Counted from the first letter of the stretch, positions 5,866 to 32,000 are shown. The stretch is 32,000 bases of DNA from a bacterium (GCA_002716355.1 PBAU01000011.1:56114-88113); one strand, 5' to 3'. The notes: generated by a model from the sequence alone, not told the origin. Program-made: numbers and translations.

Positions 5866-6153
5866 ATGTTTAGAAAGATTTTTTCTGGTGAAAGTTGGAA
5901 AGCTGAGAGTGATGAAGATTTTGCTTCAAACCTTGTAGATAACGGCCTAGGGGTTCCTTCAGTGTTTTTATTAGAGTTAGCAAAACCTTTGAACGTTTTG
6001 GCATCTTCGGCATTTACGGTTCTTTCACCAGTCGGACACTTGTTTTTCGATAGGGAAAAATGGGATGTTGTGCCGGATTTTTTTTCAGACAGGAAAAGAA
6101 TCGAAGATATGATAAATTCAATAGAAAAGGAATTAGCTGCTCATGAATCATAA
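5866..6153 (+). CDS. Hypothetical 95-aa protein, probable first gene of the uncharacterised operon
   Basis: The ORF overlaps the downstream ATPase gene by 11 nt (6143..6153). It has an acidic N-terminus, a central hydrophobic stretch VPSVFLLELAKPLNVLASSAFTVLSPVG and an acidic C-terminal helix. I recognised no family. Confidence 0.5.
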   Translation: MFRKIFSGESWKAESDEDFASNLVDNGLGVPSVFLLELAKPLNVLASSAFTVLSPVGHLFFDREKWDVVPDFFSDRKRIEDMINSIEKELAAHES

Positions 6154-15174: not shown

Positions 15175-15188
15175 GTCTTATAAATTTA

Positions 15189-16106: not shown

Positions 16107-17710
16107 TGAAATTTAAGATAGACAAAAAATCTTTTTCTTTGTTGATTTTTGTAGTGTTTTTGTCATGTTTTTTTTCAAGGATGCTAAGTATATCGTATGG
16201 AACTTTTTTACTTACAGAAGATCAACTTGTTGAAAAGAACATTTATGCAACACAGAAAATTTCAATTGAAGGTCAGTTTTTTGAAAAAGGGGATTTGATC
16301 ATGGCTGCCGGTGAGGGGCATGCAACCAAGGAAATCATCTCCATGCTTGAGGAAGAAGGACGATTGAGAACTGCTGATTGGTCTTTCAAGTTGCTTTCTG
16401 ATACTCTTTATTTTTTATTGCTATTGGCTTTGGTTTGGATTGCTGTTGAAAAGGTTGGCTATCCAATTAGTAATTTTTCACACAATTTAAATTTCCTTGC
16501 ATTCCTGGCAAGCTCTTTGATTTTTTCTGCATCTTTGATTTCTATAGTTAAACCAGATTTGAATCCAACATTTCAATTAGCCATACCTATTAGTACATGC
16601 TTGTTAACGTTGATTATTCTTTACCCATTTCGCTTTGCTCTGATTTATTCTTTGTTGATGTTGTATTTGCTTATTCCAATCCTTCCTCATTTGGAAATTA
16701 GTAATCTAGTAGGCATTTTTTCTGCATTAGCAGCTATAGTGGGGATAAAAGATCGTAGCAAAATTAAATTGTTTGAATCGGTTGGTTTTTTAGTTTTGTT
16801 TCTATGGCTTTTAGATTCGTTAGTGCATTTTTCAAAATATGGAACAAACACATCAATAACTGATGTAATTCTTATGCAGAGCCTCCCGGGCTCTGTAATT
16901 GTTGGAGTTTTTGTATTTTCACTCGTTACCTTGTTTTTGAAAATTGCAAAGAAAAGCTTTTTGCTTTCGACACCTGAGGCACTAGTTGAACTGTCAGCTC
17001 CTGATCATTTTTTGTTATCCCAGCTTGCAGAAAAAGCTCCTGGAACAATGGCTCATGTTCATGCTGTTCAGGAAATTGCCGAAGCAGGATGCTCCGCGAT
17101 TTCTTCAATGTCTCAGTCTTCAAGCTCCCCAGTTAACCCTTGGCTTGTCAGGGCAGGTGCTTTATTTCATGATATCGGCAAGATAGAAAGACCGCATTTT
17201 TTTAGCGAAAATCAAAAAGATGGCGACAATCCTCATGAGGATCTTTCTCCACAAATGAGTGCAAGATTATTGATAAGTCATGTTAAAAGTGGTGTTGAAT
17301 TAGCCAAAGCAAACAAGCTTCCTGATAGGGTTATCTCTATAATAAAAAGCCATCATGGACAAACTCTTGCAGGTCATTTTTACACTTTAGCCAAAGAGCA
17401 AGCTGAAGCTGTTGGTGCTACTCCTCCAAATGACAAAGATTTCAGGTATCCAGGACCAAAACCAAAAGCAATTGAAGAGGTAATTGTTTCTCTTGCGGAT
17501 GCAGTTGAGGCAATTAGTAGATCTTTAAGAGATTTGCCATCTGAAGATCTTGTGAAAATCCTAAAGGAAGAAATTAAAGCAAGAGAGTCTGAGGGTCATT
17601 TTTCTGAATCTGAAATAACCACAGCTCAATTTTCAGTTTTGAAGAAAGCTGTTTTGGATGAAGCAGTTCTTAGGCATCATAGAAGAATAGGTTATATAAA
17701 AGAATCTTGA
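16106..17710 (+). CDS. Multi-pass membrane protein with a C-terminal HD-domain phosphohydrolase (7TM-HD, PgpH/YqfF-like)
   Basis: Multiple hydrophobic helices fill the N-terminal two thirds. The HD domain follows, with HVHAVQEIAE ... GALFHDIGKIERPHFF ... HHGQTL. Position between phoH and ybeY is the classic conserved arrangement. ATG at 16106 (TAATG overlap) is preferred over GTG at 16100. Confidence 0.7.
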   Translation: MKFKIDKKSFSLLIFVVFLSCFFSRMLSISYGTFLLTEDQLVEKNIYATQKISIEGQFFEKGDLIMAAGEGHATKEIISMLEEEGRLRTADWSFKLLSDTLYFLLLLALVWIAVEKVGYPISNFSHNLNFLAFLASSLIFSASLISIVKPDLNPTFQLAIPISTCLLTLIILYPFRFALIYSLLMLYLLIPILPHLEISNLVGIFSALAAIVGIKDRSKIKLFESVGFLVLFLWLLDSLVHFSKYGTNTSITDVILMQSLPGSVIVGVFVFSLVTLFLKIAKKSFLLSTPEALVELSAPDHFLLSQLAEKAPGTMAHVHAVQEIAEAGCSAISSMSQSSSSPVNPWLVRAGALFHDIGKIERPHFFSENQKDGDNPHEDLSPQMSARLLISHVKSGVELAKANKLPDRVISIIKSHHGQTLAGHFYTLAKEQAEAVGATPPNDKDFRYPGPKPKAIEEVIVSLADAVEAISRSLRDLPSEDLVKILKEEIKARESEGHFSESEITTAQFSVLKKAVLDEAVLRHHRRIGYIKES

Positions 17711-20332: not shown

Positions 20333-21132
20333 AGCAAAGTATCATTATTCATGCTGGTGCTGGCAAGCACAGAGCTTCATTAAAGGATGTAGATCGTATT
20401 GTTAAACTCGCAGTTGAAGAAGGGTTCAAGCAAAAAAAAAATGGTGCTTTAGACATGTCTGTTAAAGCTGTTGAGGTTATGGAAAGTTCAGGATTTTTAA
20501 ATTCAGGATCAGGGAGTGTTAGGCAGGATGACGGAAAAGTCAGGATGGATGGATCGATTGCATTAAGCAATGGTGCAGTTTCTTCTGTTTTAGGCTTGCC
20601 AGGATGTTGGAATGTTTCACTTATTTGTAAAACATTGTTAAGTTCAAAGAATCCAATGATGTGCGGAAGGCAATTGAAACATAAATTACAACATTTAGGT
20701 TTTAATGAACTTGAACCTGATTTGGAATCATACAGAGAGTGGTTTAACCTTGGTCAAAATTCACCTGGAACTGTTGGAGCTGTAGCTTTTGATGGCGATA
20801 CATTATGTGCTGTTACAACAACAGGTGGTAGATCTGGAGTAGAAGCTGGAAGAATAGGTGATAGTGGTATCATTGGCTCAGGATCATCAGCAAATTCAAT
20901 TGGTGCTGTTTCATGCACTGGTATAGGGGAAGCAATAGTCAGATCAAGATTGTCAGATTATGCTTTGAGGTTAATGGATAGTATGAATCCAATGAAAGCT
21001 TGTCAAGAATCAATAAAAAAATTAGAACAGGATATTTTTGATGAGGGTATTGGTGGTTTAATTGCAATAAATAATAAAGGTGAAATTGGTTGGGCTTTCA
21101 ACACTCAGGAAATGCCTATTGGATTCAAATAG
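20329..21132 (+). CDS. Ntn-hydrolase of the isoaspartyl peptidase / plant-type L-asparaginase family
   Basis: N-terminal IIIHAGAG. The autoproteolytic nucleophile context GTVGAVAFDG is followed by AVTTTGG and the Gly-rich GRIGDSGIIGSG. The TTG start overlaps the upstream TGA. At 267 aa it is somewhat short for the family. Confidence 0.65.
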   Translation: MKQSIIIHAGAGKHRASLKDVDRIVKLAVEEGFKQKKNGALDMSVKAVEVMESSGFLNSGSGSVRQDDGKVRMDGSIALSNGAVSSVLGLPGCWNVSLICKTLLSSKNPMMCGRQLKHKLQHLGFNELEPDLESYREWFNLGQNSPGTVGAVAFDGDTLCAVTTTGGRSGVEAGRIGDSGIIGSGSSANSIGAVSCTGIGEAIVRSRLSDYALRLMDSMNPMKACQESIKKLEQDIFDEGIGGLIAINNKGEIGWAFNTQEMPIGFK

Positions 21133-21143
21133 AATTTAATGGT

Positions 21144-21959
21144 ATGAACACAGAATTAATTTTCATTATTGTTTTTGCATGTTTTGGAAGTTTTTTAAAT
21201 GTTGTTATACATCGATATTACTCAAAAGAAAGTGTAATTTTCGGTTCATCTCATTGTCCTAAATGTAAATACAAAATAAAATGGTTTGACAATATTCCAA
21301 TAGTTTCTTGGCTTTTTCTTCAAGGTAGATGTAGAGCTTGCAAAAAGCCTATATCTTTTATTTATCCAATAGTGGAGATTTTATGTGCTTTTATAGGTTA
21401 TTCTTTGTTTTTCTCTGCAGATCATTTTTTTATTTCAGGTTATAAGCATGATTGGAGCTTATCAATTGCGTTATTATCTTTTTTTGTTTTTTGTGGATTT
21501 TTGGTCATTACTTTTATAGATTTGAAATCAAAAATAATTCCTCATAGGTTTTTAATATTTTCAGGTCTGAATGTATTTTTTATTCATTTTCTTACCGGGA
21601 ATAAAAGTGATTCGTTTATGGATGGCTTGATTGGAATGTTTACCTTGGCTGTATCTCTTGCAGGTGTTTTATGGATTGGAAGCTTGATGTTGAAAAGAGA
21701 TGCAATGGGTTGGGGTGATGTGAAGATGGCGCTTGTCATAGGTTTTTTGTTAGGTTTGAATTTTGGGTATGTTGCTATCTTTACAGCAATTTTCACAGGA
21801 GCTGTTTTTGGATTGTTGATGATGGCTTCTAAAAAAATGAAAAATCAAAATTATAGAAATTTAGAAATGCCATTTGGCCCTTTTCTAGCTTTAGGAACAT
21901 ACTTAACTTTTCTTTATGGCCCAAAATTAATTAATGATTTTTTTTCTATCCTGTCTTAA
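21144..21959 (+). CDS. pilD: Prepilin peptidase / N-methyltransferase (peptidase A24)
   Basis: The N-terminal four-Cys motif CPKC...(21 aa)...CRAC lies within SHCPKCKYKIKWFDNIPIVSWLFLQGRCRACKKPISFIYPIVE. The catalytic Asp contexts are ITFIDLKSKIIP and AMGWGDVKMA. The protein is polytopic. ATG at 21144 (MNTELIFIIVF...) is preferred over the track start at 21090, which overlaps the previous gene. Confidence 0.85.
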   Translation: MNTELIFIIVFACFGSFLNVVIHRYYSKESVIFGSSHCPKCKYKIKWFDNIPIVSWLFLQGRCRACKKPISFIYPIVEILCAFIGYSLFFSADHFFISGYKHDWSLSIALLSFFVFCGFLVITFIDLKSKIIPHRFLIFSGLNVFFIHFLTGNKSDSFMDGLIGMFTLAVSLAGVLWIGSLMLKRDAMGWGDVKMALVIGFLLGLNFGYVAIFTAIFTGAVFGLLMMASKKMKNQNYRNLEMPFGPFLALGTYLTFLYGPKLINDFFSILS

Positions 21960-22045: not shown

Positions 22046-23077
22046 ATGAAAAAGTTTAATAGTCGAATCAAAAAAGGCTTTACGCTTGCTGAAATGCTTG
22101 TTGTGCTTGCGATTGTTGGCATACTGATAACAATCAGCCTTCCAGCAGTTGCCCAAGGTAACCATAGAAGAAAATTTGATTCTTATTCAACAAAAATATT
22201 AGGTGATTTAAGGTGGGCCTTTAATGAATCAAGCGCAAAAGGTGAAGAGTTGGTTCTTGAGATTGTTGGCTTTTATCACAATCAGACAAACACAGGACAC
22301 CCCTTTCCATTAGAAGATGTAATAAGGGTTTGGAAAAAGAAAGATTGGGAAAAATATTTAGATCTTTCAATGCATAAAAGTCCAAATAGTAATTTTGATC
22401 TTGAATTTGCAGCTCCTTACTTGGTTTATGACCTTTCTGAAAGTTCTAATTTAAATGAAAATAGCTGTTTCTTGGATGGTACTGATGCAGCTTCTAATCT
22501 TGTCGATTGTGACTATGTTATCAGCGAGGATGAGCTCCCAGTTCCTCTGAGGGAATATGTTAAAGAGGATTACAAGGATCCTCCTATGTTGCTTGAGTTG
22601 CCTGAATATCAAGCTGTTTTAACAAGTAAAAAATTTAAAAGAATTAGGAATATACCTAGGGAAATTGATTTAATTGCCCCATTTGTAGATCAGTCTTTTT
22701 ACGATGGTAGCGGTTTGGTAGATTATGAGAATTTGATTTCTTATGCAGTCATAAGACCTGAAGGCAATGCAGAAAGTTCTACAGGTGTTTTAACTTTTGC
22801 TTTCATGTTGAAGCCAGAGTATTTCACTGAAAGAATTTTGAGCCTTGCAAACAATAAAACTGAAAATTCATCACGTTTCAAGTGTGCAATGGAGGCAAAT
22901 TTACAGAGCAAGTCCAATGGTAGGACCGTACAATTAATGCTTTCTAGTGGGGGGGTCAGAATCACAGAGGCATCTCCAACTGAATACATGGATCCAAATA
23001 GGGAATCTTCATGTAATACTTCAATTCCAGATGCAGAGTGGTCTTTAGATTTTGACAGGGGAACAGGTTGGAAATGA
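22046..23077 (+). CDS. Prepilin-type protein, GspH/FimT(FimU)-like minor pseudopilin, enlarged (343 aa)
   Basis: Class III signal peptide MKKFNSRIKKG|FTLAEMLVVLAIVGILITISLP with Glu at +5. The following RRKFDSYSTKILGDLRWAFNESSAKGEELVLEI resembles the GspH/FimT N-terminal pattern. It lies immediately downstream of the prepilin peptidase gene. Confidence 0.7.
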   Translation: MKKFNSRIKKGFTLAEMLVVLAIVGILITISLPAVAQGNHRRKFDSYSTKILGDLRWAFNESSAKGEELVLEIVGFYHNQTNTGHPFPLEDVIRVWKKKDWEKYLDLSMHKSPNSNFDLEFAAPYLVYDLSESSNLNENSCFLDGTDAASNLVDCDYVISEDELPVPLREYVKEDYKDPPMLLELPEYQAVLTSKKFKRIRNIPREIDLIAPFVDQSFYDGSGLVDYENLISYAVIRPEGNAESSTGVLTFAFMLKPEYFTERILSLANNKTENSSRFKCAMEANLQSKSNGRTVQLMLSSGGVRITEASPTEYMDPNRESSCNTSIPDAEWSLDFDRGTGWK

Positions 23078-24516
23078 AATTTAAAAAAGGTTTCACGCTT
23101 GTTGAGCTCCTTGTAGGGATAAGCATTTTGATTTTGGTTCTATTGCCTGTCCTTACAGCAATTGGACGAACTGTTAACAGAAGTGAGCAGAGCCAATCGA
23201 TGAATCAAGCATTAAACCTTGCTGAAGAGCGCATCAGTTCTTTAGAGGCTCATCTGAGTTCAGCTTGGTATCCAGGTGGTATACCTTTTGATTTTGAAGG
23301 CGGAAGCACGTTAACTGATGATCCTGTTGACATTGCAAATGACCCTGAGTTAAATGAATATCTTCCAGGAAACTGGTTTAGGGGACAGCAAGAAAATCAA
23401 AGAGGCGAGATCGCGCTTTACATGGAGCCTTCTTATTATGGGTGTGATAACCAGAATGCCATTGGATCTGAAGATGAAGATAGATATCTTAATGACAATA
23501 TGCATATTTGCATTAATCCTTATAATCCAAACAATTTGACAAATGAAGATGGGGTTGATTTGTCCAATGAAAAATATAGAGTTGCGATGGCTTTATTTGC
23601 AGCAAGGATGGATCCAATTGATGCTTTAGGTATATACATGCCTGAGCTGCATCCGGAATCATTCAGATTTAACAATTCAGATACTTGCAATACTAATTTT
23701 GATGGGGATTGCCCAAGAATCGATGGAATAGAGGATTTTGGAGAAATTGTAGATAAGGCATTTTTCGAAGAATCTTCTGACTTCACTTGTTTTGGCGCTA
23801 TTGATGGTCATGTTGGGAGAAATTGGTTTGATTTTGGTTATATTGCATCACCTTTTGATAATGAATCATTTTCTGACAATATTGCCTGGCCAAATTATTT
23901 AAGCTATTGGAGGATGATTGCTGCTGCTGGGGTTACCAGAGCAAATCCAGATCCCACAGATGATAACAGGAATGAATGTGCCTTGAATCCAAATCAATCT
24001 GTGTCTGAAATTTCATCAAAAATTGCTAATTCCTTGGGAACTTTTCAGAAGTTCAGGCGTGAAACACAGATCTCAACTGTTTATTTTCCTGGTGGAGGAA
24101 GAGATTTAACTGAGGTTATCGATCCTCAGGATGCGAGATACTATAGATCTTCAGAAGGTGTTTTGGGAAGATTAGTTCGAGTCTCGGTTGTTTGGAGAGC
24201 AGGAGAGGGTTGCTCTTCAAATAATAATCCTTCTAGCCAAGGTTTGTTTTCAAGATGTTCTGATCCAATTGCAAGTATACGTAGGCAATTGAGTTTAAGT
24301 GATTCAAATATTAATTTAAGAAGTAAAGTTTCATTAAACAAAGGTGTAGAGCTTAGAAAGTTTATACCTGATCCAGACCAGGATCCTTGTGACAGCATGT
24401 TGCAATTACTTGGTCCTTTAGGAGAGAAAACAAGCAGGTTGTCAGGAGCTTTGCATGATGGAGATCCGACAAATGCTTCAAATGTATTTGAAGAATGTTG
24501 GTATAAGGATTCATAA
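23074..24516 (+). CDS. Prepilin-type protein, PilV/GspI-like minor pseudopilin, enlarged (about 480 aa)
   Basis: MKFKKG|FTLVELLVGISILILVLLPVL with Glu +5, then QSQSMNQALNLAEERISSLEA, the PilV/GspI-like helix. ATG at 23074 makes an ATGA overlap with the upstream stop; the track start is TTG at 23068. The remainder is an Asp/Asn/Gly/Pro-rich region with several Cys. Confidence 0.7.
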   Translation: MKFKKGFTLVELLVGISILILVLLPVLTAIGRTVNRSEQSQSMNQALNLAEERISSLEAHLSSAWYPGGIPFDFEGGSTLTDDPVDIANDPELNEYLPGNWFRGQQENQRGEIALYMEPSYYGCDNQNAIGSEDEDRYLNDNMHICINPYNPNNLTNEDGVDLSNEKYRVAMALFAARMDPIDALGIYMPELHPESFRFNNSDTCNTNFDGDCPRIDGIEDFGEIVDKAFFEESSDFTCFGAIDGHVGRNWFDFGYIASPFDNESFSDNIAWPNYLSYWRMIAAAGVTRANPDPTDDNRNECALNPNQSVSEISSKIANSLGTFQKFRRETQISTVYFPGGGRDLTEVIDPQDARYYRSSEGVLGRLVRVSVVWRAGEGCSSNNNPSSQGLFSRCSDPIASIRRQLSLSDSNINLRSKVSLNKGVELRKFIPDPDQDPCDSMLQLLGPLGEKTSRLSGALHDGDPTNASNVFEECWYKDS

Positions 24517-24531
24517 ATGGAGGTTGTAAAA

Positions 24532-25632
24532 ATGAAAAAAGGTTTTACATTGACTGAATTATTGGTCGTAATAGTAATTATTGGGATTCTGATTACATTA
24601 GTGGTCCCAAGTGTTACAAAAGCAAGAAATAAAGCTAAGGAAGCTCAGGTTAAAGCAGGTATTCATGATATTGAAGTTGCTTTAAGCTCTTTCTCTGCTG
24701 GAAATTCTGGATGGTATCCTGGTGTTGGATACGATCCAAGCGGTACACAATCATTGCAATCAAGCATGTTGGGCATTGCAGGAAGATCCGGAATATCAAT
24801 TCCTGATGGTGGGGAAATCATTTCAAGTGGTGTTGTAGGAGGGAGAATGGATTGCATGGTTGATCCTAGAAAATGCGGAAGTGAAACCCCTAGTGAAAAT
24901 AAATATTTAGATGATTATTGGAGATGGGACAGGCTTTATTTAGAAGGTGTTTTAGATGAGTATCCAACAAACCCCTTTAGCAGTGCTAAAGCTGGAAATT
25001 CAAGTGTAAAAAGAGGTATGCATAATATATTTGTAGTTTCAGTTTTGCCAGTTTCCGGTACAGGTGGGCCAGATTTCATCGGTACATGTTTATCTAAGCC
25101 AGCTGGAGAGGCTGAAGCGTTTGCTGGCGGTGGAAATTGGTACAGTTATGAAAATTACAACACTGTTAACGGAAGATTGTCTTATGGTTGGGATGATGCA
25201 AGTACTTCAACGCCTGCTGTTTGTAATGCTGTTACGGGTGATGATAATAACTCCTGGGAAGAGACACCCACTCTTTACCCTAGAGGTGATTTTGCATACA
25301 TACCTTTAGATTCTGTTGATAAGCGAATGTTCACAGATTCAAGTGGTAATTTGGCTAATGGTGAATATATGGCTTTTGTTGAAAATTATTGGATTATTGG
25401 ATATGGAGCAGAATCTGCTTGGAAATCAGATATTTTCAATGTTGATTCTCTTGCTTCAGGAAATAATTGTGGCTTGAAGTTCCAGCAACCTTTAGGTAGG
25501 ATTGACCCTGCTTCAACCGCATCTTTTTTAAACTGTACGCCAACTGAATATGAGAACAGAGTTCTCGAAGCCTTAAGAGGTGCAATTTTATTGCAGGGAA
25601 CTGCATATACAGAGCAGGCTTTTAGCGAGTAA
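24532..25632 (+). CDS. Prepilin-type protein with a GspG / major-pilin-like N-terminal region and a roughly 300-aa C-terminal extension
   Basis: MKKG|FTLTELLVVIVIIGILITLVVPSVTKARNKAKEAQVKAGIHDIEVALSSFSAGNSGWYPG follows the GspG pattern (..AR..A....A..DL..I..AL..Y..D.G.YP). GGAGG at 24519-24523 lies 8 nt upstream of ATG 24532 and supports that start over ATG 24517. Confidence 0.7.
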   Translation: MKKGFTLTELLVVIVIIGILITLVVPSVTKARNKAKEAQVKAGIHDIEVALSSFSAGNSGWYPGVGYDPSGTQSLQSSMLGIAGRSGISIPDGGEIISSGVVGGRMDCMVDPRKCGSETPSENKYLDDYWRWDRLYLEGVLDEYPTNPFSSAKAGNSSVKRGMHNIFVVSVLPVSGTGGPDFIGTCLSKPAGEAEAFAGGGNWYSYENYNTVNGRLSYGWDDASTSTPAVCNAVTGDDNNSWEETPTLYPRGDFAYIPLDSVDKRMFTDSSGNLANGEYMAFVENYWIIGYGAESAWKSDIFNVDSLASGNNCGLKFQQPLGRIDPASTASFLNCTPTEYENRVLEALRGAILLQGTAYTEQAFSE

Positions 25633-25635
25633 TTT

Positions 25636-27147
25636 ATGATTTTTTACAGTAAAAGATCAGGTTTCACGATGACTGAATTATTAGTATCCATAGCGATACT
25701 TGTTGTCGTGATGACACTTTTGCTGACAGTTATAGAGTCAACTTTTAAAACTTTAAGAGTGGTTACTGGTGAGTCAAATGCTTCTAATCGTGCCAGAATT
25801 GCAATGGATCAAATCGTTGCAGAATTGAGCAATGTTGATGATATGGGTTTTGTTGATTTTCATATTCCTAGAATCAAAAAATCAAGATCTCAATATGTTG
25901 CTGGTTTACAAAATGCTGCAAGTGCTGGATGTGACATTTATTTAGAATTACATCCTAGCGATACAGCTTTTAGAAATGTTCCGTACCCAGATTCAACTCT
26001 TTTTAACCAGGATCTAAATTACAACTGCTACATTGAACCTTGGGAAGTGATGGATCCAGATCCAACATGGACTTCAAGATTCTCTGAAGGGGGTGGAAGC
26101 TCTGATGCTCCTGCTTATTGCAATCAGTATTTAGCACCTGGTGTTTTGGCAATGGAGTCATCTTCAGGTCTTTCTTGCAATGGAGGATCTTGTCGAATCG
26201 GGTTGAATGACAGGAATCTTAATCCTGATGATCGTATGGCTGCAAATGATCCTTTTGAAAGTTGGAGGTCTGAAGTAGACCAATTGAAACCTTCATGGAG
26301 TGAGCTTTTTGGTCAAATGTGTCAAGAAGACATTGATGCAAGTGGATTTATTACAACTCATAATTTAACACCTTATATAACTTCTAGGGAGGATCTAGAT
26401 GGCAATGGCACAATTAATGGACAAGAAGAGTTTTTAAGGACGATTGTTTTTAAAACCAAAAGTCCAACATACTCTTCAAATGCAGCTTCAAACACTCCTA
26501 ATCTAGCTGGTGCATTAAATTCCAATAATAGTGTCGAACAGCTTTCACATAGAGTTGTAACTTTTGCTCACACATGGAAAGAAAAAGCCTTTTCCATACC
26601 ATTAACGGATAGTTTTGATGGGGGTTGTAACCCTTCTAACTATTCTCATCTTTCTTCTGATTTTGTCTTATACAAAAGAGAATCTAATTTTTATTCCGAT
26701 CCTATCTTGAATATGGATCTTGATAGAGATGGCAATCCTAGTGAAGAAATTGAGGATGAATGTTTGAGAACAGTGGAAACCCCTGTTACTGATGGGGTTG
26801 TAGATGTAAGGTTTAAATTAATTGATTCTAGAGGTGATGAAATCAATGCAGGTAACCAGTATTATTATTGGTTTGACAGGGATCCTAGTGACAACAATCC
26901 TATTAGCCCTCCTATCACAGCATTGGATGCGGTTAGAGCAATTGAAGTTTATATCTTGACTGCAAGTGATGATGTGATTTCAGTATTAAGAAGTTCTATG
27001 GATGATGGCAAACTTTTCAGCATTACAAGTGGCAACCCTGGTGAGTTAGCACGATTGAATTTCTTGAGGATACAGAGTTTGCAACCTGAAATTTACAATC
27101 CAAATAATTTTGTTCAACTGAGGAGAAAGGTCAACCTCTATGAATAA
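25636..27147 (+). CDS. Prepilin-type protein, PilW/GspJ-like minor pseudopilin, enlarged (503 aa), with EF-hand-like loops
   Basis: MIFYSKRSG|FTMTELLVSIAILVVVMTLLL with Glu +5, then SNASNRARIAMDQIVAELSNV, a GspJ/PilW-like helix. The loops DLDGNGTINGQE and DLDRDGNPSEEI lie in the large Asp/Asn-rich C-terminal part. Confidence 0.65.
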   Translation: MIFYSKRSGFTMTELLVSIAILVVVMTLLLTVIESTFKTLRVVTGESNASNRARIAMDQIVAELSNVDDMGFVDFHIPRIKKSRSQYVAGLQNAASAGCDIYLELHPSDTAFRNVPYPDSTLFNQDLNYNCYIEPWEVMDPDPTWTSRFSEGGGSSDAPAYCNQYLAPGVLAMESSSGLSCNGGSCRIGLNDRNLNPDDRMAANDPFESWRSEVDQLKPSWSELFGQMCQEDIDASGFITTHNLTPYITSREDLDGNGTINGQEEFLRTIVFKTKSPTYSSNAASNTPNLAGALNSNNSVEQLSHRVVTFAHTWKEKAFSIPLTDSFDGGCNPSNYSHLSSDFVLYKRESNFYSDPILNMDLDRDGNPSEEIEDECLRTVETPVTDGVVDVRFKLIDSRGDEINAGNQYYYWFDRDPSDNNPISPPITALDAVRAIEVYILTASDDVISVLRSSMDDGKLFSITSGNPGELARLNFLRIQSLQPEIYNPNNFVQLRRKVNLYE

Positions 27148-30100
27148 TTCAAGAAAATCTGGTGTAGCTTTAGTTACTGTTTTGATTTTTCTTGCATTGG
27201 TTTTACCTGCATTAGTTATTATTTTAAGTTTTGCAAGAAATGAAATAGAGTTTGGTTCTCTTGATTGGGAAAGAAAACAATCTGATCAAATGAGTAAATC
27301 AGGTTTGGACATAGCTGAAAATATGCTTAATACTGGTTTTGCATCATTGAACCAACCAATATTTAGATTCCCAATGGATAAGGATCAAAATGGTACTTTG
27401 GATGATATTGATGGCGATTTAACCTTAGACGAATGGGCTTATGCTTTTCCTTTTTCTACAATTAGCCACCTTTCATCACCATGGATCAAGTATCCCGTAT
27501 TATCAAATGAAACTTGGTTTTCTAGAGATTTAGTTAGTCTTTCTGGTTTTTCAACAGCTCAATTGAACAGACCTGCGGGAAGCTTGCCGGTTTACCCACT
27601 TTTCAAAGACAAGAATAACACTGGTTTTGTTGATTATTCTTCCTATGAGCATTCAGAATATGATTATTTCGATCCATCATTTGGTTGTGCTGAAAATACA
27701 ACATCTTCCTGGGAGCCTAAGCCATGTTTGATAATGTCTTTTATCCCATTTGGGAAAAAAACAGAAACATCACCAGTTCCTTCGGCAACTTTAGACATCA
27801 ACAATTCTGATTTTATGTGGAATGGAAATCCTTATAGTTCAAACAATTCTTACAATCCTGCCCAGTTAAGAAATCAAACTTTTGTATCTGATTGGAGTTA
27901 TAACCATGCTATTACTGGAGACAGAGATAAAACTACTGCTCATATTCCATCAAATTTTCCATCATTGGGTTCTGAGATATTTAACCCTTATGCAGATAGA
28001 CTGAAAGCACAACTTTCAAACTGTAACCCGAGTCAGGATGAATTTTTTGTAAGGGATTTATTTTTAAGTTCCTCAGGCATGACTTACCCTTTGCAGTTAG
28101 ATAAATCTTATGAAAACGAAACAGAATCAAGGGTTAATTTTGGATTACCTAATATGCCTGATTCCTATGTTATGTTTGATCCAAGAACATGTATGCCTTT
28201 GTATGCTTCACAAGCAAAGGATGTTGATGGTGGGTATGAGGTTGTTGTTTCAGATGAAGGGGCAAGGTTTCCCTTGTATGGTTTCTTGCACAATCCCGAT
28301 GATCCGTCTTTTAATAACCCAATGCTTCTTGAGTCTGTCAATGGCTTGGGAGGTAATTTTACCATTGTAGATGAAACCAGTTTTATACCAAGGATGACTG
28401 GTTCAAATGTAGATGAAAAAGGGGAATTTGCACATCTTGCTCAAAGGGGGATAGTTTCTTTATTAGCACCTTTTCATAGAAATGATTACAACACTGGTCA
28501 TGCTGCAGCAATGATTTCATACATAGGCTTTAATGATGTTGGAGATATATCATCATTACCTGATGCTGTATGCCCAAAAGGCAATTGTCCAGATGGGGAA
28601 AGGTTTGGTTTAGGTTTTGAGAAACCTTTAAATTGGCCTGAAGGGTTAAAGGATATACTTGATGTTGACGGTATAAAACTTAGGGATGGTTTGGATTCAA
28701 GTTTTAAAATCAATGATAAGAACTGGAAAGACATTCAAGCTAGGGTTTCCCTGCATTCAACTCCTCAGGAAAGATCGACCATTAACATACAGGGAAACGC
28801 TCTAAACGATCCAAGATTTATCTTTTATCCATTTATTGATTCCAGAGCGACTCCTGAGATGGAGGATCCTGTTTTAAGGTGCAGGGATTCAGATTCTGAT
28901 GATTTTTGTCGTTCAAATTCTGGTTTGTTTAAGGTTGATTTATGGCAAACGCCAACCAGTTGGCCAACCGGATCCTCTTCAGATCCAGTTTCAAATGTTT
29001 TATCTACATCTATCAATATGGATTCTGCGGATTGGGTTTCAAGCGGTTGTTCTTCAAGGTTTCAAAACATAGGCGATATAAATGATTATTTTTCATTACT
29101 GGGTAGAGGAAATGCACCTGCGGGATTTTCATCATCAGATTTAAGGCATTCTGTTTGGCCAGAAGAGTTTTATTGGTTTATTAATTGTTTTTGGAAAAGT
29201 GATATTAGGAATGAGTTAGTAGATAAAAAAGATGAAATAGAAGCAGTTTTAAGGGAATTCTTTCATCAAAATGGATCTTTGAAGAATATATGGAGAACAG
29301 ATCCATTTGATGATTTTCCCGACTTGATATCTGAGAAAATTGTTGGCCATTGGGCTGCATGGCAATATTTTTATCGATATTTTGATGATGAGGATGATTG
29401 TAGGGATATTTCTCCAGAATTCAATCTTGATGATTCATCTTCAATTACAACAAATGTTGGCAACCCGCAAGTTTTGCTTGCAGAAAGGCATGCAAGATAT
29501 CATGGTCCAGCCGATTTAGGAATGCCTATTGGAAATGTTAGGGATATGCTTGGGTCAACTTTGATACCCTATCCGGAAATGAACGGTCCTTTTTGGGATC
29601 CTGGAAATGTCGGTTCTAACTCGAATCCAGGTTGTGGTCTTACATCTCTCGACGGTGATGATTTTCCAGATATGACAACGAACATTCCAATACAACATTC
29701 AGGAGGAGTGGTTGCTAACGTTAATGTCAATATTGAGAAATTGAATGTCATGCCCGCTGTCTGGATTCCCAATAGTAGACCGTCTTTCTATAGTGAGGAC
29801 CCACCTTATGATGATTTTGATTTTGGAGCTAGTGAACCTGTTTCTGGTTGGCCAATTTACGATCCCTTGGGCTTTGACAGCAGGAATAAGGGTTTGGGTA
29901 ACTCAAATCAATCTTTTATAAACAGAAGAGATGATTCGCTTATCTTGCACCTGATTAGCTCTGTTGCGTTTTTTGATAGTCCTTATGCAACTTATTTTGA
30001 TGATCCGCACATAAACGAACCCTGCTTAGTTTCAGATGATTTTTTTGATCCGATAGTGGGTGCTTCAAATGGTACTACTGATCCTTGGGACAATGTATTA

Positions 30101-31006
30101 GGAGCAGGAGGATCTTTAACTACTATGGACCTCAATGCAACCTTTGGCGGTTGGTGGGAGGCTGATGGCAGGAATATAGGTTCTTTTGATGACAGTGATT
30201 GCAATATTGATGATCCAACCACAGATATTGGCTTTACACCTCTTGAATGGAGACCTTTAAAAACTAGAGGAAGAGTGAACATAAACACAGCTGCGTTTGA
30301 TGTTTTGCATGCAGCTTTTGCCAAGGTGTGTGATTTTAATAATGGTATAGGCATTGACATTTTCAATAATTCTTGTGGATCTTTGCCATCAGTAATTGCA
30401 TCAATCTTGAACTATCGCGAATATTACTATTCTGATCCAAATCAGCCCTTTGATGATATAAGTTCCCATGGGACTTTGTTTTCATGGTTGCCTAATGGAG
30501 TGGCTTTATACGGCGGAAGTTTTATTGAGCAGTTTTTCAATGATATAAATTTATACACAACTGGTGATTGCAGAAACGGAAGTTCTAACGGTACCAGCTG
30601 TGCTCTTCAGAATACAGATGACATATTATGGGATTGGCATACTGGAGAATGGAGTAATAATGGCTTGAATAAGATTCCTTTCAGAACAATAACCCAGTTG
30701 TTAGATCTTTCAGATGGTGTAGATCCAAGAAACTTAAACTTGAGCTCAAGAAGACTCTTGTCTGTCGATGATATAGCAAACAACAGCAATGGTGCTATTG
30801 CCGTTTTAGCAAGAATAGATCAGGATTTTTCAGTATTCAGCCAGGGTTACAGAATTGAAAGCATGGGTAGTTATGGTAGAGCAAATAGCACTCTATTCAA
30901 AATCTTGGGTTTAGATGGAAACTTAAACCTTACAGTTTTTGAAGAAGAAAAGTCTGGAGGAACGGATGATTCCTTCGGTTTATATTTTGGAAGTTATTAC
31001 AAATGA
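27140..31006 (+). CDS. Giant (1288 aa) GspK/PilX-like pseudopilin, candidate tip or adhesin subunit
   Basis: The N-terminus MNNSRKSGVALVTVLIFLALVLPALVIIL matches the GspK-type (R/K)G.AL..VL pattern with no Glu at +5. The C-terminal RGRVNINTAAFDVLHAAF matches the GspK (I/V)N(I/V)NTA helix-hairpin-helix motif. About 1000 residues of Asp/Asn/Ser/Pro/Trp-rich sequence with about two dozen Cys lie between them. It overlaps the upstream gene by 8 nt. Confidence 0.65.
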   Translation: MNNSRKSGVALVTVLIFLALVLPALVIILSFARNEIEFGSLDWERKQSDQMSKSGLDIAENMLNTGFASLNQPIFRFPMDKDQNGTLDDIDGDLTLDEWAYAFPFSTISHLSSPWIKYPVLSNETWFSRDLVSLSGFSTAQLNRPAGSLPVYPLFKDKNNTGFVDYSSYEHSEYDYFDPSFGCAENTTSSWEPKPCLIMSFIPFGKKTETSPVPSATLDINNSDFMWNGNPYSSNNSYNPAQLRNQTFVSDWSYNHAITGDRDKTTAHIPSNFPSLGSEIFNPYADRLKAQLSNCNPSQDEFFVRDLFLSSSGMTYPLQLDKSYENETESRVNFGLPNMPDSYVMFDPRTCMPLYASQAKDVDGGYEVVVSDEGARFPLYGFLHNPDDPSFNNPMLLESVNGLGGNFTIVDETSFIPRMTGSNVDEKGEFAHLAQRGIVSLLAPFHRNDYNTGHAAAMISYIGFNDVGDISSLPDAVCPKGNCPDGERFGLGFEKPLNWPEGLKDILDVDGIKLRDGLDSSFKINDKNWKDIQARVSLHSTPQERSTINIQGNALNDPRFIFYPFIDSRATPEMEDPVLRCRDSDSDDFCRSNSGLFKVDLWQTPTSWPTGSSSDPVSNVLSTSINMDSADWVSSGCSSRFQNIGDINDYFSLLGRGNAPAGFSSSDLRHSVWPEEFYWFINCFWKSDIRNELVDKKDEIEAVLREFFHQNGSLKNIWRTDPFDDFPDLISEKIVGHWAAWQYFYRYFDDEDDCRDISPEFNLDDSSSITTNVGNPQVLLAERHARYHGPADLGMPIGNVRDMLGSTLIPYPEMNGPFWDPGNVGSNSNPGCGLTSLDGDDFPDMTTNIPIQHSGGVVANVNVNIEKLNVMPAVWIPNSRPSFYSEDPPYDDFDFGASEPVSGWPIYDPLGFDSRNKGLGNSNQSFINRRDDSLILHLISSVAFFDSPYATYFDDPHINEPCLVSDDFFDPIVGASNGTTDPWDNVLGAGGSLTTMDLNATFGGWWEADGRNIGSFDDSDCNIDDPTTDIGFTPLEWRPLKTRGRVNINTAAFDVLHAAFAKVCDFNNGIGIDIFNNSCGSLPSVIASILNYREYYYSDPNQPFDDISSHGTLFSWLPNGVALYGGSFIEQFFNDINLYTTGDCRNGSSNGTSCALQNTDDILWDWHTGEWSNNGLNKIPFRTITQLLDLSDGVDPRNLNLSSRRLLSVDDIANNSNGAIAVLARIDQDFSVFSQGYRIESMGSYGRANSTLFKILGLDGNLNLTVFEEEKSGGTDDSFGLYFGSYYK

Positions 31007-31120: not shown

Positions 31121-32000
31121 ATGAAAATAAAACTATTTTTATTAACTTTAATTTTTTCAATTTTCACTTCAGGGCTTAACGCTTCTTATCTGGAAGATAA
31201 GACTGCTGTCCGTTGGACAATATCTGAAGATGAAACTTTTATCACTCTTTTTGTGGACACTCCAGTTGCTGTCACACATAAAAATGAAGTGTATCCAACA
31301 AGGCTTGTTTTTAACATTCCTGGTGGTTACATGGACGAAGGAGAAGATGAAAAAACAATACAGTGGAACGGAGCTGAAAAGAGTTTTGTAAAAGAAATCA
31401 AAGCCGTTTCTATAGATCCAAAGTTTGAGGACTCCTTTTTAAGGTTGGTTTTTACTTTTGGGATAAGGGTTCCAATAAGCACAGAGCTTGGTGAAGATTA
31501 TCAATATTACAGAATTTCTCCTACAAGATACGCTTTTGTTCTAAATAAAAATAGATTGAACTGCAAGCATGAAAATTATTTAGCTGCACAACAGGATAGG
31601 GAAAATGAAATTGTTGAATGTGAATTAGTTGTTTTTCCTGAGTCGGCACCTGAAGCTAGAGAAAATGTAAGGATATGGACTGATGTTTCAGGATCTCCAC
31701 AGGATGTTGTCAATGAATTGGCAGACAAAGCAGGATTGAAGGTTGATTTTGATGCAGCTTTTTCTGATGCTGAAAATTGGACACTTACAGCAGAAGGTGG
31801 AACATTAGGTGAACTACTTTCCTCTTTAGAACAGGAAGAAGGTATAGTTTGGAATATTTCTGAAGGTGTTTTGACAATTTCTGATAATTCTGAATTATTA
31901 ATGGCTCAAGCAGAGGCTGCAAGGATCGCTGCTGAGGAAGAGGCTGCTCGAATAGCTGCTGAGGAAGAGGCTGCAAGGATCGCTGCTGAGGAAGAGGCTG
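31121..32000 (+). CDS. Secreted protein with AMIN-like and STN/N0-like domains; probable N-terminus of a PilQ/GspD-type secretin (partial, runs off the right edge)
   Basis: Absent from the ORF track because it has no in-window stop. My translation: MKIKLFLLTLIFSIFTSGLNASYLEDKTAVRWTISEDETFITLFVDTPVAVTHKNEVYPTRLVFNIPGG... (signal peptide, then an AMIN-like beta domain) ... VRIWTDVSGSPQDVVNELADKAGLKVDFDAAFSDAENWTLTAEGGTLGELLSSLEQEEGIVWNISEGVLTIS (STN / secretin N0-like) ... AARIAAEEEAARIAAEEEAARIAAEEEA. The position after the pseudopilin operon fits a secretin. The secretin domain itself would lie outside the window. Confidence 0.5.
   Translation, partial: MKIKLFLLTLIFSIFTSGLNASYLEDKTAVRWTISEDETFITLFVDTPVAVTHKNEVYPTRLVFNIPGGYMDEGEDEKTIQWNGAEKSFVKEIKAVSIDPKFEDSFLRLVFTFGIRVPISTELGEDYQYYRISPTRYAFVLNKNRLNCKHENYLAAQQDRENEIVECELVVFPESAPEARENVRIWTDVSGSPQDVVNELADKAGLKVDFDAAFSDAENWTLTAEGGTLGELLSSLEQEEGIVWNISEGVLTISDNSELLMAQAEAARIAAEEEAARIAAEEEAARIAAEEEA
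31916..32000 (+). repeat. In-frame 27-bp tandem repeat (at least 3 units, truncated by the window edge) encoding AARIAAEEE
   Basis: Units at 31916-31942, 31943-31969 and 31970-31996. Units 1 and 3 are nucleotide-identical (gctgcaaggatcgctgctgaggaagag). Unit 2 differs only at synonymous positions (gct cga ata for gca agg atc). Confidence 0.9.

What the first reader, a model, noticed from the sequence alone, without database searches (positions are those of the whole stretch)
27140..31006. 1288-aa GspK/PilX-like protein: about 1000 residues inserted between the pseudopilin helix and the NINTA motif; possible built-in tip adhesin
Its N-terminus (KSGVALVTVLIFLALVL, no Glu+5) and the motif RGRVNINTAAFDVLHAAF (30275-30292 encodes VNINTA) are the two hallmarks of GspK, which caps the pseudopilus tip. 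GspK is normally about 330 aa. Here the hallmarks are about 1040 residues apart, and the intervening sequence has many closely spaced Cys pairs (e.g. AVCPKGNCPDGE, LRCRDSDSDDFCRS, GDCRNGSSNGTSCAL), many N-x-S/T sites and an EF-hand-like loop. In T4aP systems a separate protein of about 1000 aa or more (PilY1) provides the calcium-binding tip adhesin next to PilX. No PilY1-like gene is present here, so this protein may merge both roles.
Basis: partly seen in the sequence, partly recalled or inferred. Interest (0 to 1): 0.65.

Follow-up and report, generated by a model that had tools for sequence, protein, structure and literature searches.

The report
Giant GspK-like pilus cap protein
This gene encodes a 1288-residue version, about four times the usual size, of the protein that caps secretion and pilus filaments in bacteria; it belongs to a small family found only in uncultured bacteria, and the function of its extra ~960 residues is unknown.

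Summary
The ORF (27140-31006, +, 1288 aa) is real and is a single gene. Co-linear full-length homologues of 1104-1331 aa occur in at least 8 lineages, down to 23% identity.

Both ends resemble GspK in the correct order in profile-profile comparison:
- Residues 1-107 match GspK columns 1-89 (96%, E 5e-9).
- Residues ~971-1180, including VNINTA, match columns 145-302 (~92%, E 4e-7).
- Column-shuffled controls gave E of 0.1 or worse.

It is the only one of five prepilin-type proteins in the operon without Glu+5. It lies last in a block of peptidase, H-, I-, G-, J- and K-like genes, followed by a secretin and, in related contigs, PilM and PilN.

It does not reach any curated GspK threshold. The ~860 residues between the two matching regions match nothing in Pfam, NCBIfam, PDB or 1.84 billion representative proteins outside its own 15-hit family.

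There is no PilY1 signature. Both AlphaFold2 runs failed (pLDDT 29 and 33), so the "built-in adhesin" idea stays untested.

All five pilins are 2-4 times canonical size, so the enlargement affects the whole system. Verdict: a new, greatly expanded variant of the GspK/PilK cap subunit; moderately interesting.

The parts
27140..31006 (+). Complete ORF, 1288 aa: giant GspK/PilK-class cap (pseudo)pilin
   Evidence: The ORF is listed. Full-length homologues of 1104-1331 aa were found.
27140..27163 (+). Short basic leader MNNSRKSG ending in Gly(-1); putative prepilin-peptidase cleavage site
   Evidence: Read directly from the sequence. The family consensus is [KR]G|[VIF]A[LI][LV], the same as E. coli GspK QRG|VALL. 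Cleavage itself is inferred.
27164..27232 (+). Hydrophobic alpha1-N segment (residues 9-31), Thr at +5 instead of Glu
   Evidence: This is the only hydrophobic segment in the protein. The four upstream pilins all have Glu+5.
27140..27460 (+). Residues 1-107: region with significant GspK N-terminal similarity
   Evidence: hhalign against a 30-sequence GspK alignment gave Prob 96%, E 4.8e-9, GspK columns 1-89. The NCBIfam GspK model is the only model hit, in 10 of 11 family members (best E 4.3e-6). The window protein scores E 1.2e-4, 21.7 bits, against a cut-off of 130.
27377..27412 (+). EF-hand-like loop DKDQNGTLDDID (residues 80-91)
   Evidence: Read from the sequence. It is present in the window clade and in P0004/P0005 but absent in the distant members. 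Pfam EF-hand gave only E 1.7, at a different stretch about 80 residues downstream (residues ~157-167).
27461..30049 (+). Residues 108-970: about 860 residues with no significant similarity to GspK or to anything outside the family; contains family-invariant motifs (GYEVxxSDEGxRFPLYxFxHNPDD 366-388, GHWAAWQYFYRY 736-747, RYHGxGD 786-792, SPYxTYFD 947-954) and 13 of the 18 Cys
   Evidence: Sliding hhalign gave only null-level scores here. Pfam on segments at E <= 10 found nothing, and PDB profiles found nothing. The exhaustive phmmer search found 15 hits (14 family members or fragments, one unrelated repeat protein, P0016).
28235..28303 (+). Residues 366-388, the most conserved block of the family; candidate counterpart of the GspK 'D..g.FNLN' strand
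   Evidence: D372, E373, P378, Y380 and H384-D388 are invariant. Three overlapping hhalign windows map it to GspK columns 92-121, but at E 0.12-0.2, which is the level of the shuffled controls. The assignment is therefore unproven.
30050..30679 (+). Residues ~971-1180: GspK alpha-domain-like region with the helix-hairpin-helix motif RGRVNINTAAFDVLHAAFAK ... ILNYRE ... IPFRTITQLLDL
   Evidence: hhalign gave Prob 91-93%, E 4e-7 to 1e-6, GspK columns 145-302. Pfam T2SSK hit the NINTA pieces of three distant members tested as pieces at E 2e-4 to 2e-3 (4 of 11 full-length members at E <= 0.1). The NCBIfam GspK model matched profile positions 212-235 in five distant members at E 0.008-0.05.
30275..30292 (+). 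VNINTA motif
   Evidence: Read from the sequence. N1047, N1049, T1050 and A1051 are invariant in the family.
30794..31003 (+). Residues 1219-1288: conserved C-terminal block AVLARIDQDFSVFSQGYRIESMG...FGLYFGSYYK, candidate last beta-strands of the pilin sheet
   Evidence: The family consensus is FARIDQDxxVxSxxYRxExxG...YY. hhalign aligns it with the GspK 'v.S.yF.v' strands (columns 280-311), but only at E 0.009, Prob 4.6%. This is marginal.
21090..21959 (+). Prepilin peptidase (first gene of the block)
   Evidence: Pfam A24_N_bact E 5.8e-31 and Peptidase_A24 E 1.4e-12.
22046..23077 (+). 343-aa prepilin-type protein, GspH-like N-terminus, Glu+5
   Evidence: Pfam N_methyl hit. NCBIfam GspH E 2.2e-7 on the N-terminus only. 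Orthologues in L009 and L012.
23068..24516 (+). 482-aa prepilin-type protein, GspI/ComGE-like N-terminus, Glu+5
24517..25632 (+). 371-aa prepilin-type protein, GspG-like N-terminus, Glu+5; best-conserved pilin of the block, so a candidate major subunit
   Evidence: NCBIfam GspG E 3.8e-13 on residues 8-63. It is 41% and 35% identical to its orthologues.
25636..27147 (+). 503-aa prepilin-type protein in the GspJ position, Glu+5; overlaps the start of the 1288-aa gene by 8 nt
   Evidence: Pfam N_methyl hit. NCBIfam Verru_Chthon cassette C E 5.5e-8, plus ComGF and HpsC N-terminal hits. Orthologues.
31121..32000 (+). Start of the downstream gene (runs off the window); its counterparts in related contigs are secretins
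   Evidence: The L009 counterpart is 1026 aa with AMIN, Secretin_N and Secretin domains. L001 has Secretin followed by PilM_2 and a PilN-like gene.

Best explanation
The gene encodes the cap subunit (GspK/PilK/PilX class) of a type IV filament machine, T2SS- or T4P-like, in an uncultured bacterial lineage whose close members come from marine metagenomes.

**Shown**
- The protein has a prepilin-like leader with Gly at -1.
- It has a single N-terminal hydrophobic helix and is the only pilin of the operon without Glu+5.
- A GspK-type helix-hairpin-helix (NxNTA) region lies near the C-terminus.
- It is the last gene of a peptidase, H, I, G, J, K block. A gene whose counterparts in related contigs are secretins follows, and PilM and PilN follow it there.

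**Inferred from what is known of GspK and PilK**
- After cleavage by the co-encoded peptidase it pairs with the upstream I- and J-like proteins.
- It primes filament assembly and stays as the top subunit.
- It supplies the last beta-strand of its own pilin sheet in cis, as in systems that lack PilY1.

**What is different**
- The GspK skeleton has been expanded by about 960 residues: about 830 before and about 130 after NINTA.
- This expansion is old and conserved along its whole length in the family.
- It is strongly acidic (177 D+E against 89 K+R), carries 18 conserved Cys in this clade (probably 9 disulfides), and contains family-invariant His/Asp/Arg/Trp motifs.
- The result would be a cap of roughly 135 kDa (my estimate from length).

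**Most likely role of the expansion (inferred, about 35-40%)**
It is a tip-displayed module that contacts a ligand or substrate. It would do the job that PilY1, CpaL's middle domain or ComZ's inserted domain do elsewhere, without being homologous to any of them.
For: **One gene, conserved family**
- Sixteen cluster members at 99% identity come from NCBI, JGI, ENA and Tara assemblies.

**GspK similarity at both ends, in order**
- hhalign N-terminus: Prob 93.5-96%, E 2e-7 to 5e-9.
- hhalign NINTA region: Prob 91-93%, E 4e-7 to 1e-6.
- Shuffled and reversed controls: 42 comparisons in all; E >= 0.096 for the 40 column-shuffled ones, and E 0.0067 for the N-terminal segment against the reversed alignment.
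- The NCBIfam GspK model is the only model hit. It matches profile positions 2-60 in the window clade and 212-235 in distant members.
- Pfam T2SSK scores better than generic HHH_3 on the same pieces.

**Glu+5 and context**
- Only this pilin lacks Glu+5. PilK homologues invariably lack it (PMC13533445).
- The gene block is conserved in L001, L009, L011 and L012.
- No PilY1 gene is nearby. PMC13533445 reports that systems without PilC/PilY1 have PilK homologues that supply the terminal strand themselves.

**Precedents for PilK-position proteins with large internal modules**
- CpaL, about 600 aa with about 470 in the middle (PMC13533445).
- ComZ (PMC7248040).
- The GspK alpha-domain itself (PMC8179133).
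Against: - No curated threshold is reached: NCBIfam GspK 21.7 bits against 130, and Pfam PF21687/PF03934/N_methyl give no hit for the window protein.
- The significant similarity covers only about 320 of 1288 residues.
- The pilin beta-sheet could not be demonstrated. The DEG strand (E 0.12-0.2) and the first SAM-like domain (E 0.06) score at null level, and the C-terminal strands are marginal at E 0.009.
- Both AlphaFold2 runs failed, with mean pLDDT 29.1 and 33.3.
- Nothing indicates binding activity. There is no lectin, Ig, vWA or propeller signature.
- The extra sequence is not hypervariable, as many adhesin heads are: 52-92% identity per 40-residue block within the clade.
- It is not known whether the filament leaves the cell.
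Confidence: 0.7

Rival explanations
1. It is the same cap subunit, but of a periplasmic T2SS-type pseudopilus. The enlarged alpha-domain serves as a bulky piston head or secretin plug, or as the substrate-contact surface, and is never displayed as an adhesin.
For: - The NxNTA/HhH alpha-domain is a T2SS GspK feature that T4aP PilX lacks (PMC7248040).
- Only the GspK model is hit.
- The candidate major subunit has a GspG-like N-terminus (E 3.8e-13).
- The extra sequence is conserved rather than diversifying.
Against: - The neighbours are PilM_2, a PilN-like protein and a secretin with an AMIN domain. By my knowledge of T4aP systems, that is the PilMNOPQ pattern.
- No GspC/L/M or GspE/F genes are in the locus.
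- Eighteen conserved Cys and the strong acidity fit an exposed protein but do not prove exposure.
Confidence: 0.25
2. It is a true fusion of a PilX/GspK-type pilin with a PilY1/PilC homologue, which is the first reader's 'merged roles' taken literally.
For: - The size (1288 aa) is close to PilX plus PilY1.
- There is an EF-hand-like loop at residues 80-91.
- No separate PilY1 gene lies in the locus.
Against: - No hit to PilC/PilY1 beta-propeller or vWA models on the whole protein or on segments, even at E <= 10.
- No internal repeats and no PDB relative.
- The exhaustive search of 1.84 billion representatives found only the family itself.
- The extra sequence lies inside the GspK skeleton rather than being appended to it.
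- GspK has Ca2+ sites of its own (PMC6211770).
Confidence: 0.04
3. It is not a pilin. It is a membrane-anchored or secreted envelope protein whose resemblance to GspK is limited to a signal-anchor-like helix and a generic helix-hairpin-helix motif.
For: - Curated family thresholds are not met.
- About 75% of the protein has no detectable similarity to anything.
- The pilin sheet is not shown.
Against: - Two independent regions match the same GspK profile in the correct order, at E 5e-9 and 4e-7 with clean controls.
- No other pilin or signal model is hit.
- The gene overlaps the preceding pilin gene by 8 nt.
- It keeps the K position after four Glu+5 pilins in lineages only ~25% identical.
Confidence: 0.06

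Closest known systems
GspK / XcpX, the T2SS minor pseudopilin K (PDB 3CI0, 5VTM; NCBIfam NF037980; Pfam PF21687 + PF03934)
   Same: - Leader ending in Gly, followed by a VALL-type hydrophobic helix without Glu+5.
- An NxNTA helix-hairpin-helix region.
- Last position in the minor-pilin gene block.
- No PilY1 partner.
- A Ca-loop-like motif.
- Profile-profile matches at both ends.
   Different: - 1288 aa, against 286-393 aa for the GspK proteins retrieved.
- About 830 extra residues before NINTA and about 130 after.
- Curated thresholds are not reached.
- The first SAM-like domain and the pilin strands are not detectable.
- The neighbours are PilM/PilN and an AMIN-secretin rather than GspC/L/M.
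PilX/PilK plus PilY1/PilC tip complex of type IVa pili
   Same: - A cap pilin without Glu+5.
- A tip protein of more than 1000 residues with calcium-type loops.
- PilM/N and an AMIN-secretin in the neighbourhood.
   Different: - Here there is one polypeptide rather than two.
- There is no PilY1 beta-propeller or vWA signature.
- T4aP PilX lacks the GspK alpha-domain (PMC7248040), whereas this protein has the NxNTA region.
CpaL/TadG (Tad pili) and ComZ (Thermus competence pilus): PilK-position minor pilin-like proteins with a large internal module
   Same: The design principle is shared: a pilin module is interrupted by a big domain, with the C-terminal strand returning to complete the sheet. 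These proteins are proposed to be tip-located and ligand-binding (PMC13533445, PMC7248040).
   Different: - They are about 550-600 aa, against 1288 aa here.
- No sequence similarity was found; the PDB searches returned nothing significant.
- The fold of the module here is unknown.
Modular type IV pilins (e.g. S. sanguinis PilB with vWA, PilC with lectin; PMC8179133)
   Same: A pilin carrying a bulky extra part, compatible only with a tip position.
   Different: - In those proteins a recognisable domain is grafted onto the C-terminus.
- Here the extra sequence lies inside the GspK skeleton and has no known signature.
- The largest case in that InterPro survey was 860 residues.
Verru_Chthon cassette (TIGR02596/02599/02600) of Verrucomicrobia
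   Same: - It is a cassette of prepilin-type proteins plus protein A, which I recall as large.
- The H-like and J-like neighbours hit cassette proteins D and C at their N-termini.
   Different: Only one family member touched the protein A model, at E 0.15. The relationship was not established or pursued.

Membership tests
GspK (T2SS minor pseudopilin K) | Prepilin-like leader with Gly(-1), then a hydrophobic alpha1-N helix lacking Glu+5 | tested here: met
   The sequence reads KSG|VALVT. hhalign on the N-terminus gave Prob 96%, E 4.8e-9. The four neighbouring pilins have Glu+5.
GspK (T2SS minor pseudopilin K) | Score above the curated cut-off of the family model (NCBIfam NF037980, 130 bits) | tested here: not met
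   21.7 bits, E 1.2e-4, residues 7-65 only. Distant members add 13-16 bits at profile positions 212-235.
GspK (T2SS minor pseudopilin K) | Second SAM-like/HhH domain beginning with NxNTA (Pfam PF03934 T2SSK) | tested here: inconclusive
   The profile-profile match is significant (Prob 92.7%, E 4.2e-7, GspK columns 194-247). Pfam gives no hit for the window protein, and 18.9-21.9 bits for relatives against a cut-off of 24.2.
GspK (T2SS minor pseudopilin K) | First SAM-like domain (Pfam PF21687) with the DWxDxD...GAED calcium region | tested here: not met
   There is no Pfam hit. hhalign of residues 401-620 gave E 0.06-0.1, the same as the shuffled controls.
GspK (T2SS minor pseudopilin K) | Pilin beta-sheet interrupted by the alpha-domain, with the last strand supplied by the protein's own C-terminus | tested here: inconclusive
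   The AlphaFold2 models are unusable, with pLDDT 29 and 33. The C-terminal block aligns with the GspK strands only at E 0.009.
GspK (T2SS minor pseudopilin K) | Gene at the end of the minor-pseudopilin block of a secretin-containing machine | tested here: met
   The order peptidase, H, I, G, J, K is found in the window, L001, L009, L011 and L012, with a secretin confirmed downstream in L001 and L009 (not directly downstream in L012).
GspK (T2SS minor pseudopilin K) | Length about 290-390 aa | tested here: not met
   1288 aa here, and 1104-1331 aa across the family. The GspK set retrieved is 286-393 aa.
PilY1 / PilC tip adhesin | C-terminal beta-propeller domain (PilC/PilY1, IPR008707) | tested here: not met
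   No Pfam hit on the whole protein at E <= 1 or on segments at E <= 10. No internal repeats. No PDB relative.
PilY1 / PilC tip adhesin | Not a pilin: Sec-type export, attaches through a C-terminal strand donated to PilK | tested here: not met
   This protein carries the PilK/GspK-type N-terminus itself.
PilY1 / PilC tip adhesin | EF-hand-like calcium site controlling function | tested here: inconclusive
   There is a loop DKDQNGTLDDID at residues 80-91. Pfam EF-hand gave E 1.7. The loop is absent in distant members. Calcium binding cannot be tested here.
Modular type IV pilins (sensu PMC8179133) | N-terminal class III signal (IPR012902 / Pfam N_methyl) plus a recognisable non-pilin domain | tested here: not met
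   N_methyl is not hit; like GspK, the protein lacks the GFxxxE form. No recognisable extra domain is present in the window protein. A PPC domain was detected by Pfam in one distant member (E 8e-4); P0011 and P0012 share the extra insert.
CpaL/TadG and ComZ type tip pilins | Sequence or structural similarity of the inserted module | tested here: not met
   The PDB sequence and profile searches found nothing significant. Structural comparison was not possible.

The most novel reading that the evidence does not exclude
The whole operon specifies a previously undescribed kind of type IV filament built entirely from oversized pilins (343-503 aa body and minor subunits). It would be capped by a ~135-kDa subunit whose ~860-residue core is a new fold with a conserved His/Asp/Arg/Trp-lined site. 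That site would act as a tip-mounted ligand-binding or catalytic module, replacing PilY1 in an unclassified bacterial lineage.
Probability: 0.3. Interest if true: 0.65.

Novelty: new variant of a known kind. Interest (0 to 1): 0.45.

Why it matters
Cap subunits decide how type IV filaments start and what their tips touch. Known caps are either small (PilX/PilK, needing PilY1) or about 330 aa (GspK).

A conserved 1100-1330-aa cap would be among the largest pilin-type proteins described. For comparison, the largest modular pilin in the InterPro survey of PMC8179133 had 860 residues.

Together with four other oversized pilins, it points to a distinct filament architecture in an uncultured lineage, part of it marine. 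The ~860-residue conserved core has no relatives in Pfam, PDB or 1.84 billion representative proteins, so it is a candidate new fold or function at a pilus tip.

The practical value today is limited: there is no cultured host, no structure and no phenotype.

Tried and rejected
**Structure prediction**
- AlphaFold2 on residues 89-1288, with a 14-sequence alignment, gave mean pLDDT 29.1.
- AlphaFold2 on residues 596-1288, also with 14 sequences, gave mean pLDDT 33.3.
- Both models are unusable, so Foldseek was deliberately not run; matches would be meaningless.
- The full 1288 aa exceeds the 1200-aa limit.

**Homology searches**
- The word-indexed search with the single sequence and with the 11-sequence alignment returned only three close clusters. 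The second search added nothing.
- The PDB was searched with the single sequence and with the 6- and 11-sequence profiles. Nothing significant was found; the best hits were chance at E 0.6 and 2.3.
- Whole-length hhalign against a single GspK sequence or the GspK alignment reports only the N-terminus, because of the huge insertions. Cutting the alignment into windows solved this.
- An HMM of the family against E. coli GspK also matched only the N-terminus.
- Pfam on four segments of the window protein and three of P0008, at E <= 10, found nothing.

**Other checks**
- Self-BLAST for internal repeats or propeller blades found none.
- N-glycosylation-type sequons are not enriched.
- The frameshift or two-gene idea was rejected on conservation.
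- The mapping of the 'DEGxRFPLY' block to the GspK FNLN strand, and of residues 425-560 to the first SAM-like domain, is co-linear and attractive by eye. It scores no better than the shuffled controls, so I do not claim it.
- The taxonomy of the host could not be established. NCBI names the MAGs only 'bacterium'.

Full report
**1. The observation**

The window holds an uninterrupted ORF at 27140..31006 (+), 1288 aa. Its N-terminus is MNNSRKSG|VALVTVLIFLALVLPALVIILSF. This is a short basic leader ending in Gly, followed by the only hydrophobic segment of the protein. Thr, not Glu, occupies position +5.

The quoted Cys-containing strings and an EF-hand-like loop (DKDQNGTLDDID, residues 80-91) are present.

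The protein has 18 Cys and is very acidic, with 177 D+E against 89 K+R. N-x-S/T sites are not enriched: 21 against 14.7 expected.

**2. One gene, and a small, old family**

The word-indexed search found only three clusters, at 99, 74 and 73% identity and all 1287-1296 aa. The 99% cluster has 16 members from NCBI, JGI, ENA, Logan and Tara assemblies, named only 'hypothetical protein [bacterium]'.

A scan of GTDB species genomes gave five close loci and one distant one. The distant one, L009, is 25% identical over residues 5-1258 and encodes a 1210-aa ORF.

An exhaustive phmmer search of residues 89-1288 against 1.84 billion representatives found only 15 proteins. The full-length ones are 1104-1331 aa and 23-41% identical.

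The 11-sequence alignment is co-linear over the entire length, with invariant blocks spread throughout:
- RGVALLxVLxF
- GYEVxxSDEGxRFPLYxFxHNPDD
- GHWAAWQYFYRY
- RYHGxGD
- SPYxTYFD
- EADGR
- WRPLxxRGRxNxNTAxFxVLxAxxAK
- YREWFY
- PPFRxxxQLLDV
- DPRD
- FARIDQDxxVxSxxYRxExxG
- a ...YY end

A sequencing frameshift or an assembly fusion is therefore excluded.

**3. Is it GspK-like at both ends?**

Curated models say 'not a member':
- Pfam gives no hit at E <= 1.
- The NCBIfam GspK model gives 21.7 bits (E 1.2e-4, residues 7-65) against a cut-off of 130.

Even so, GspK is the only model hit, and it is hit in 10 of 11 family members. In the distant members the same model is also touched at profile positions 212-235 by the NINTA region, at E 0.008-0.05. 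Pfam T2SSK hits their NINTA pieces at E 2e-4 to 2e-3, better than the generic HHH_3 model at 0.14-0.25.

I then built a 30-sequence GspK alignment of proteins 286-393 aa long. I compared it with windows of the family alignment using hhalign:
- Residues 1-107 match GspK columns 1-89 (Prob 96%, E 4.8e-9).
- Residues ~971-1180 match columns 145-302 (Prob 91-93%, E 4e-7 to 1e-6).
- Forty comparisons with column-shuffled GspK alignments gave E >= 0.096. The reversed alignment gave 0.0067 and 0.72.

Both ends therefore relate to GspK, in the right order.

Three further co-linear resemblances score at or near the null level, and I do not claim them:
- The SDEGxRFPLY block against the GspK 'D..g.FNLN' strand (E 0.12-0.2).
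- Residues 425-560 against the first SAM-like domain (E 0.06).
- The C-terminal 'V.S..YR.E' block against the GspK 'v.S.yF.v' strands (E 0.009).

Relative to E. coli GspK, the excess is about 830 residues before the NxNTA motif and about 130 after it.

**4. What the extra sequence is**

It could not be identified.
- There is no Pfam domain in the whole protein or in segments at E <= 10.
- There is no PDB relative by sequence or profile.
- There are no internal repeats and no relatives outside the family.
- Two AlphaFold2 runs with the shallow 14-sequence alignment failed, with mean pLDDT 29.1 and 33.3. I did not run Foldseek on them.

The extra sequence is not a recent or variable add-on. Within the clade, 40-residue blocks are 52-92% identical. 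Some of the most conserved blocks across the whole family lie inside it, at residues 361-400 and 721-760.

Lineage-specific additions do exist. P0011 and P0012 carry an extra insert with PPC-domain similarity.

One family-wide EF-hand-like loop (RDDYDGNGxVDE) is replaced in the window clade by a Cys pair (CPKGNCPDGERFGLGFE). The loop at residues 80-91 is specific to the window clade and its nearest relatives. Calcium loops are in any case normal for GspK, which has two canonical sites and a third in XcpX (PMC6211770).

**5. Context**

The gene is the last of a tightly packed block on the + strand:
- a prepilin peptidase (Pfam A24)
- four N_methyl proteins with Glu+5, whose N-termini look like GspH, GspI/ComGE, GspG and GspJ-position proteins
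- this gene, which overlaps the previous one by 8 nt

Downstream, a gene starts at 31121. Its counterparts are secretins: L009 has AMIN + Secretin_N + Secretin, and L001 has Secretin followed by PilM_2 and a PilN-like protein.

The block is conserved gene for gene, with nearly the same sizes. L009 has 362/534/383/509/1210 aa and L012 has 342/491/370/468/1263 aa, with full-length pairwise similarity.

All five pilins are 2-4 times the size of their E. coli counterparts. The enlargement is therefore a property of the whole filament system, not of the cap alone.

No PilY1-like gene lies in the window or within 10 kb in the related loci. The assembly ATPase and platform genes are not in the locus.

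**6. Mechanism**

*Shown:* the features of a cap pilin. These are the leader, the single helix without Glu+5, the GspK-type HhH region and the K position.

*Inferred from established knowledge* (Korotkov & Hol 2008 as cited in PMC7248040; PMC13533445):
- The protein is cleaved by the co-encoded peptidase.
- It joins the I- and J-like proteins to prime assembly.
- It stays on top of the filament.
- In the absence of PilY1, it completes its own pilin sheet with its C-terminal strand.

*Speculative:* the ~135-kDa acidic, disulfide-rich head presents a conserved site to a ligand or substrate. This would be analogous to PilY1, to the middle domain of CpaL or to the inserted domain of ComZ, but not homologous to them.

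The main rival is a periplasmic T2SS-type pseudopilus in which the big head acts as a piston or plug. The GspK- and GspG-like signatures favour this. The PilM/PilN and AMIN-secretin neighbours favour a T4aP-like machine.

**7. Comparison and novelty**

The protein works like a GspK/PilK-class cap. It fails the curated membership thresholds and the size criterion for GspK, and it fails every PilY1 criterion tested.

The concept of a tip pilin with a large built-in module is known from the GspK alpha-domain, ComZ, CpaL and the modular pilins (PMC7248040, PMC8179133, PMC13533445). What is new here:
- the scale of the expansion
- its position inside the GspK skeleton
- the lack of any recognisable fold
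- the co-enlargement of all pilins
- the restriction to an unclassified bacterial lineage

I rate it a new variant of a known kind, with interest 0.45.

Noticed in passing
window 22046-27147 (four genes), with L009:4524-9947 and L012:4929-9990: All four Glu+5 prepilin-type proteins upstream are also 2-4 times canonical size (343, 482, 371 and 503 aa). They have full-length orthologues of nearly identical size in lineages only 24-41% identical. All have even Cys counts (4, 10, 6, 8) and are acidic. The 371-aa GspG-like protein is the best conserved, so it may be the major subunit.
   Followed up: partly
window 9041-12133 and 12109-15174: There is a tandem duplication of a four-gene cassette of membrane proteins (266/222/285/257 aa and 276/214/286/246 aa, clearly paralogous in sequence). 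It lies just downstream of a MutL-family (PF13941) gene at 6143-7921 and a biotin/lipoyl-like gene at 7926-9044. Its function is unknown.
   Followed up: no
window 31912-32000 (runs off the end): A 27-nt tandem repeat, at least 3.3 copies at 87% match, encodes (AARIAAEEE)n in the N-terminal part of the downstream secretin-like gene. In L001 the corresponding gene is split into two ORFs (13978-14889 and 15086-16303), possibly because of assembly trouble in this repeat.
   Followed up: partly
window 28571-28621 (residues 478-494) and 27377-27412 (residues 80-91): Distant family members have an EF-hand-like loop, RDDYDGNGxVDE. In the window clade the same position reads CPKGNCPDGERFGLGFE: the acidic ligands are lost and a Cys pair is gained. 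Conversely, the loop at residues 80-91 exists only in the window clade and in P0004/P0005. This looks like a swap between calcium and disulfide stabilisation.
   Followed up: no
proteins P0011 and P0012 (L012:10001-13792), between positions equivalent to window residues ~620 and ~632: Two distant family members carry an extra insert of roughly 150-250 residues that starts with 'EPND'. It shows weak similarity to the bacterial pre-peptidase C-terminal (PPC) domain (Pfam E 8e-4). This shows the cap tolerates added modules at this point.
   Followed up: partly
window 25636-27147: The 503-aa J-position pilin contains two EF-hand-like loops, DLDGNGTINGQEE and DLDRDGNPSEE.
   Followed up: no
L012:17682-20463: In the most distant lineage (NCBI 'bacterium JZ-2024 1') the pilin block is followed not by a secretin but by a SNF2-type helicase. 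A DUF1501/DUF1800 pair lies nearby; from memory such pairs are common in Planctomycetota and Verrucomicrobiota. Together with the Verru_Chthon cassette C/D N-terminal hits of the neighbouring pilins, this hints at a PVC-related host. This is unverified.
   Followed up: no
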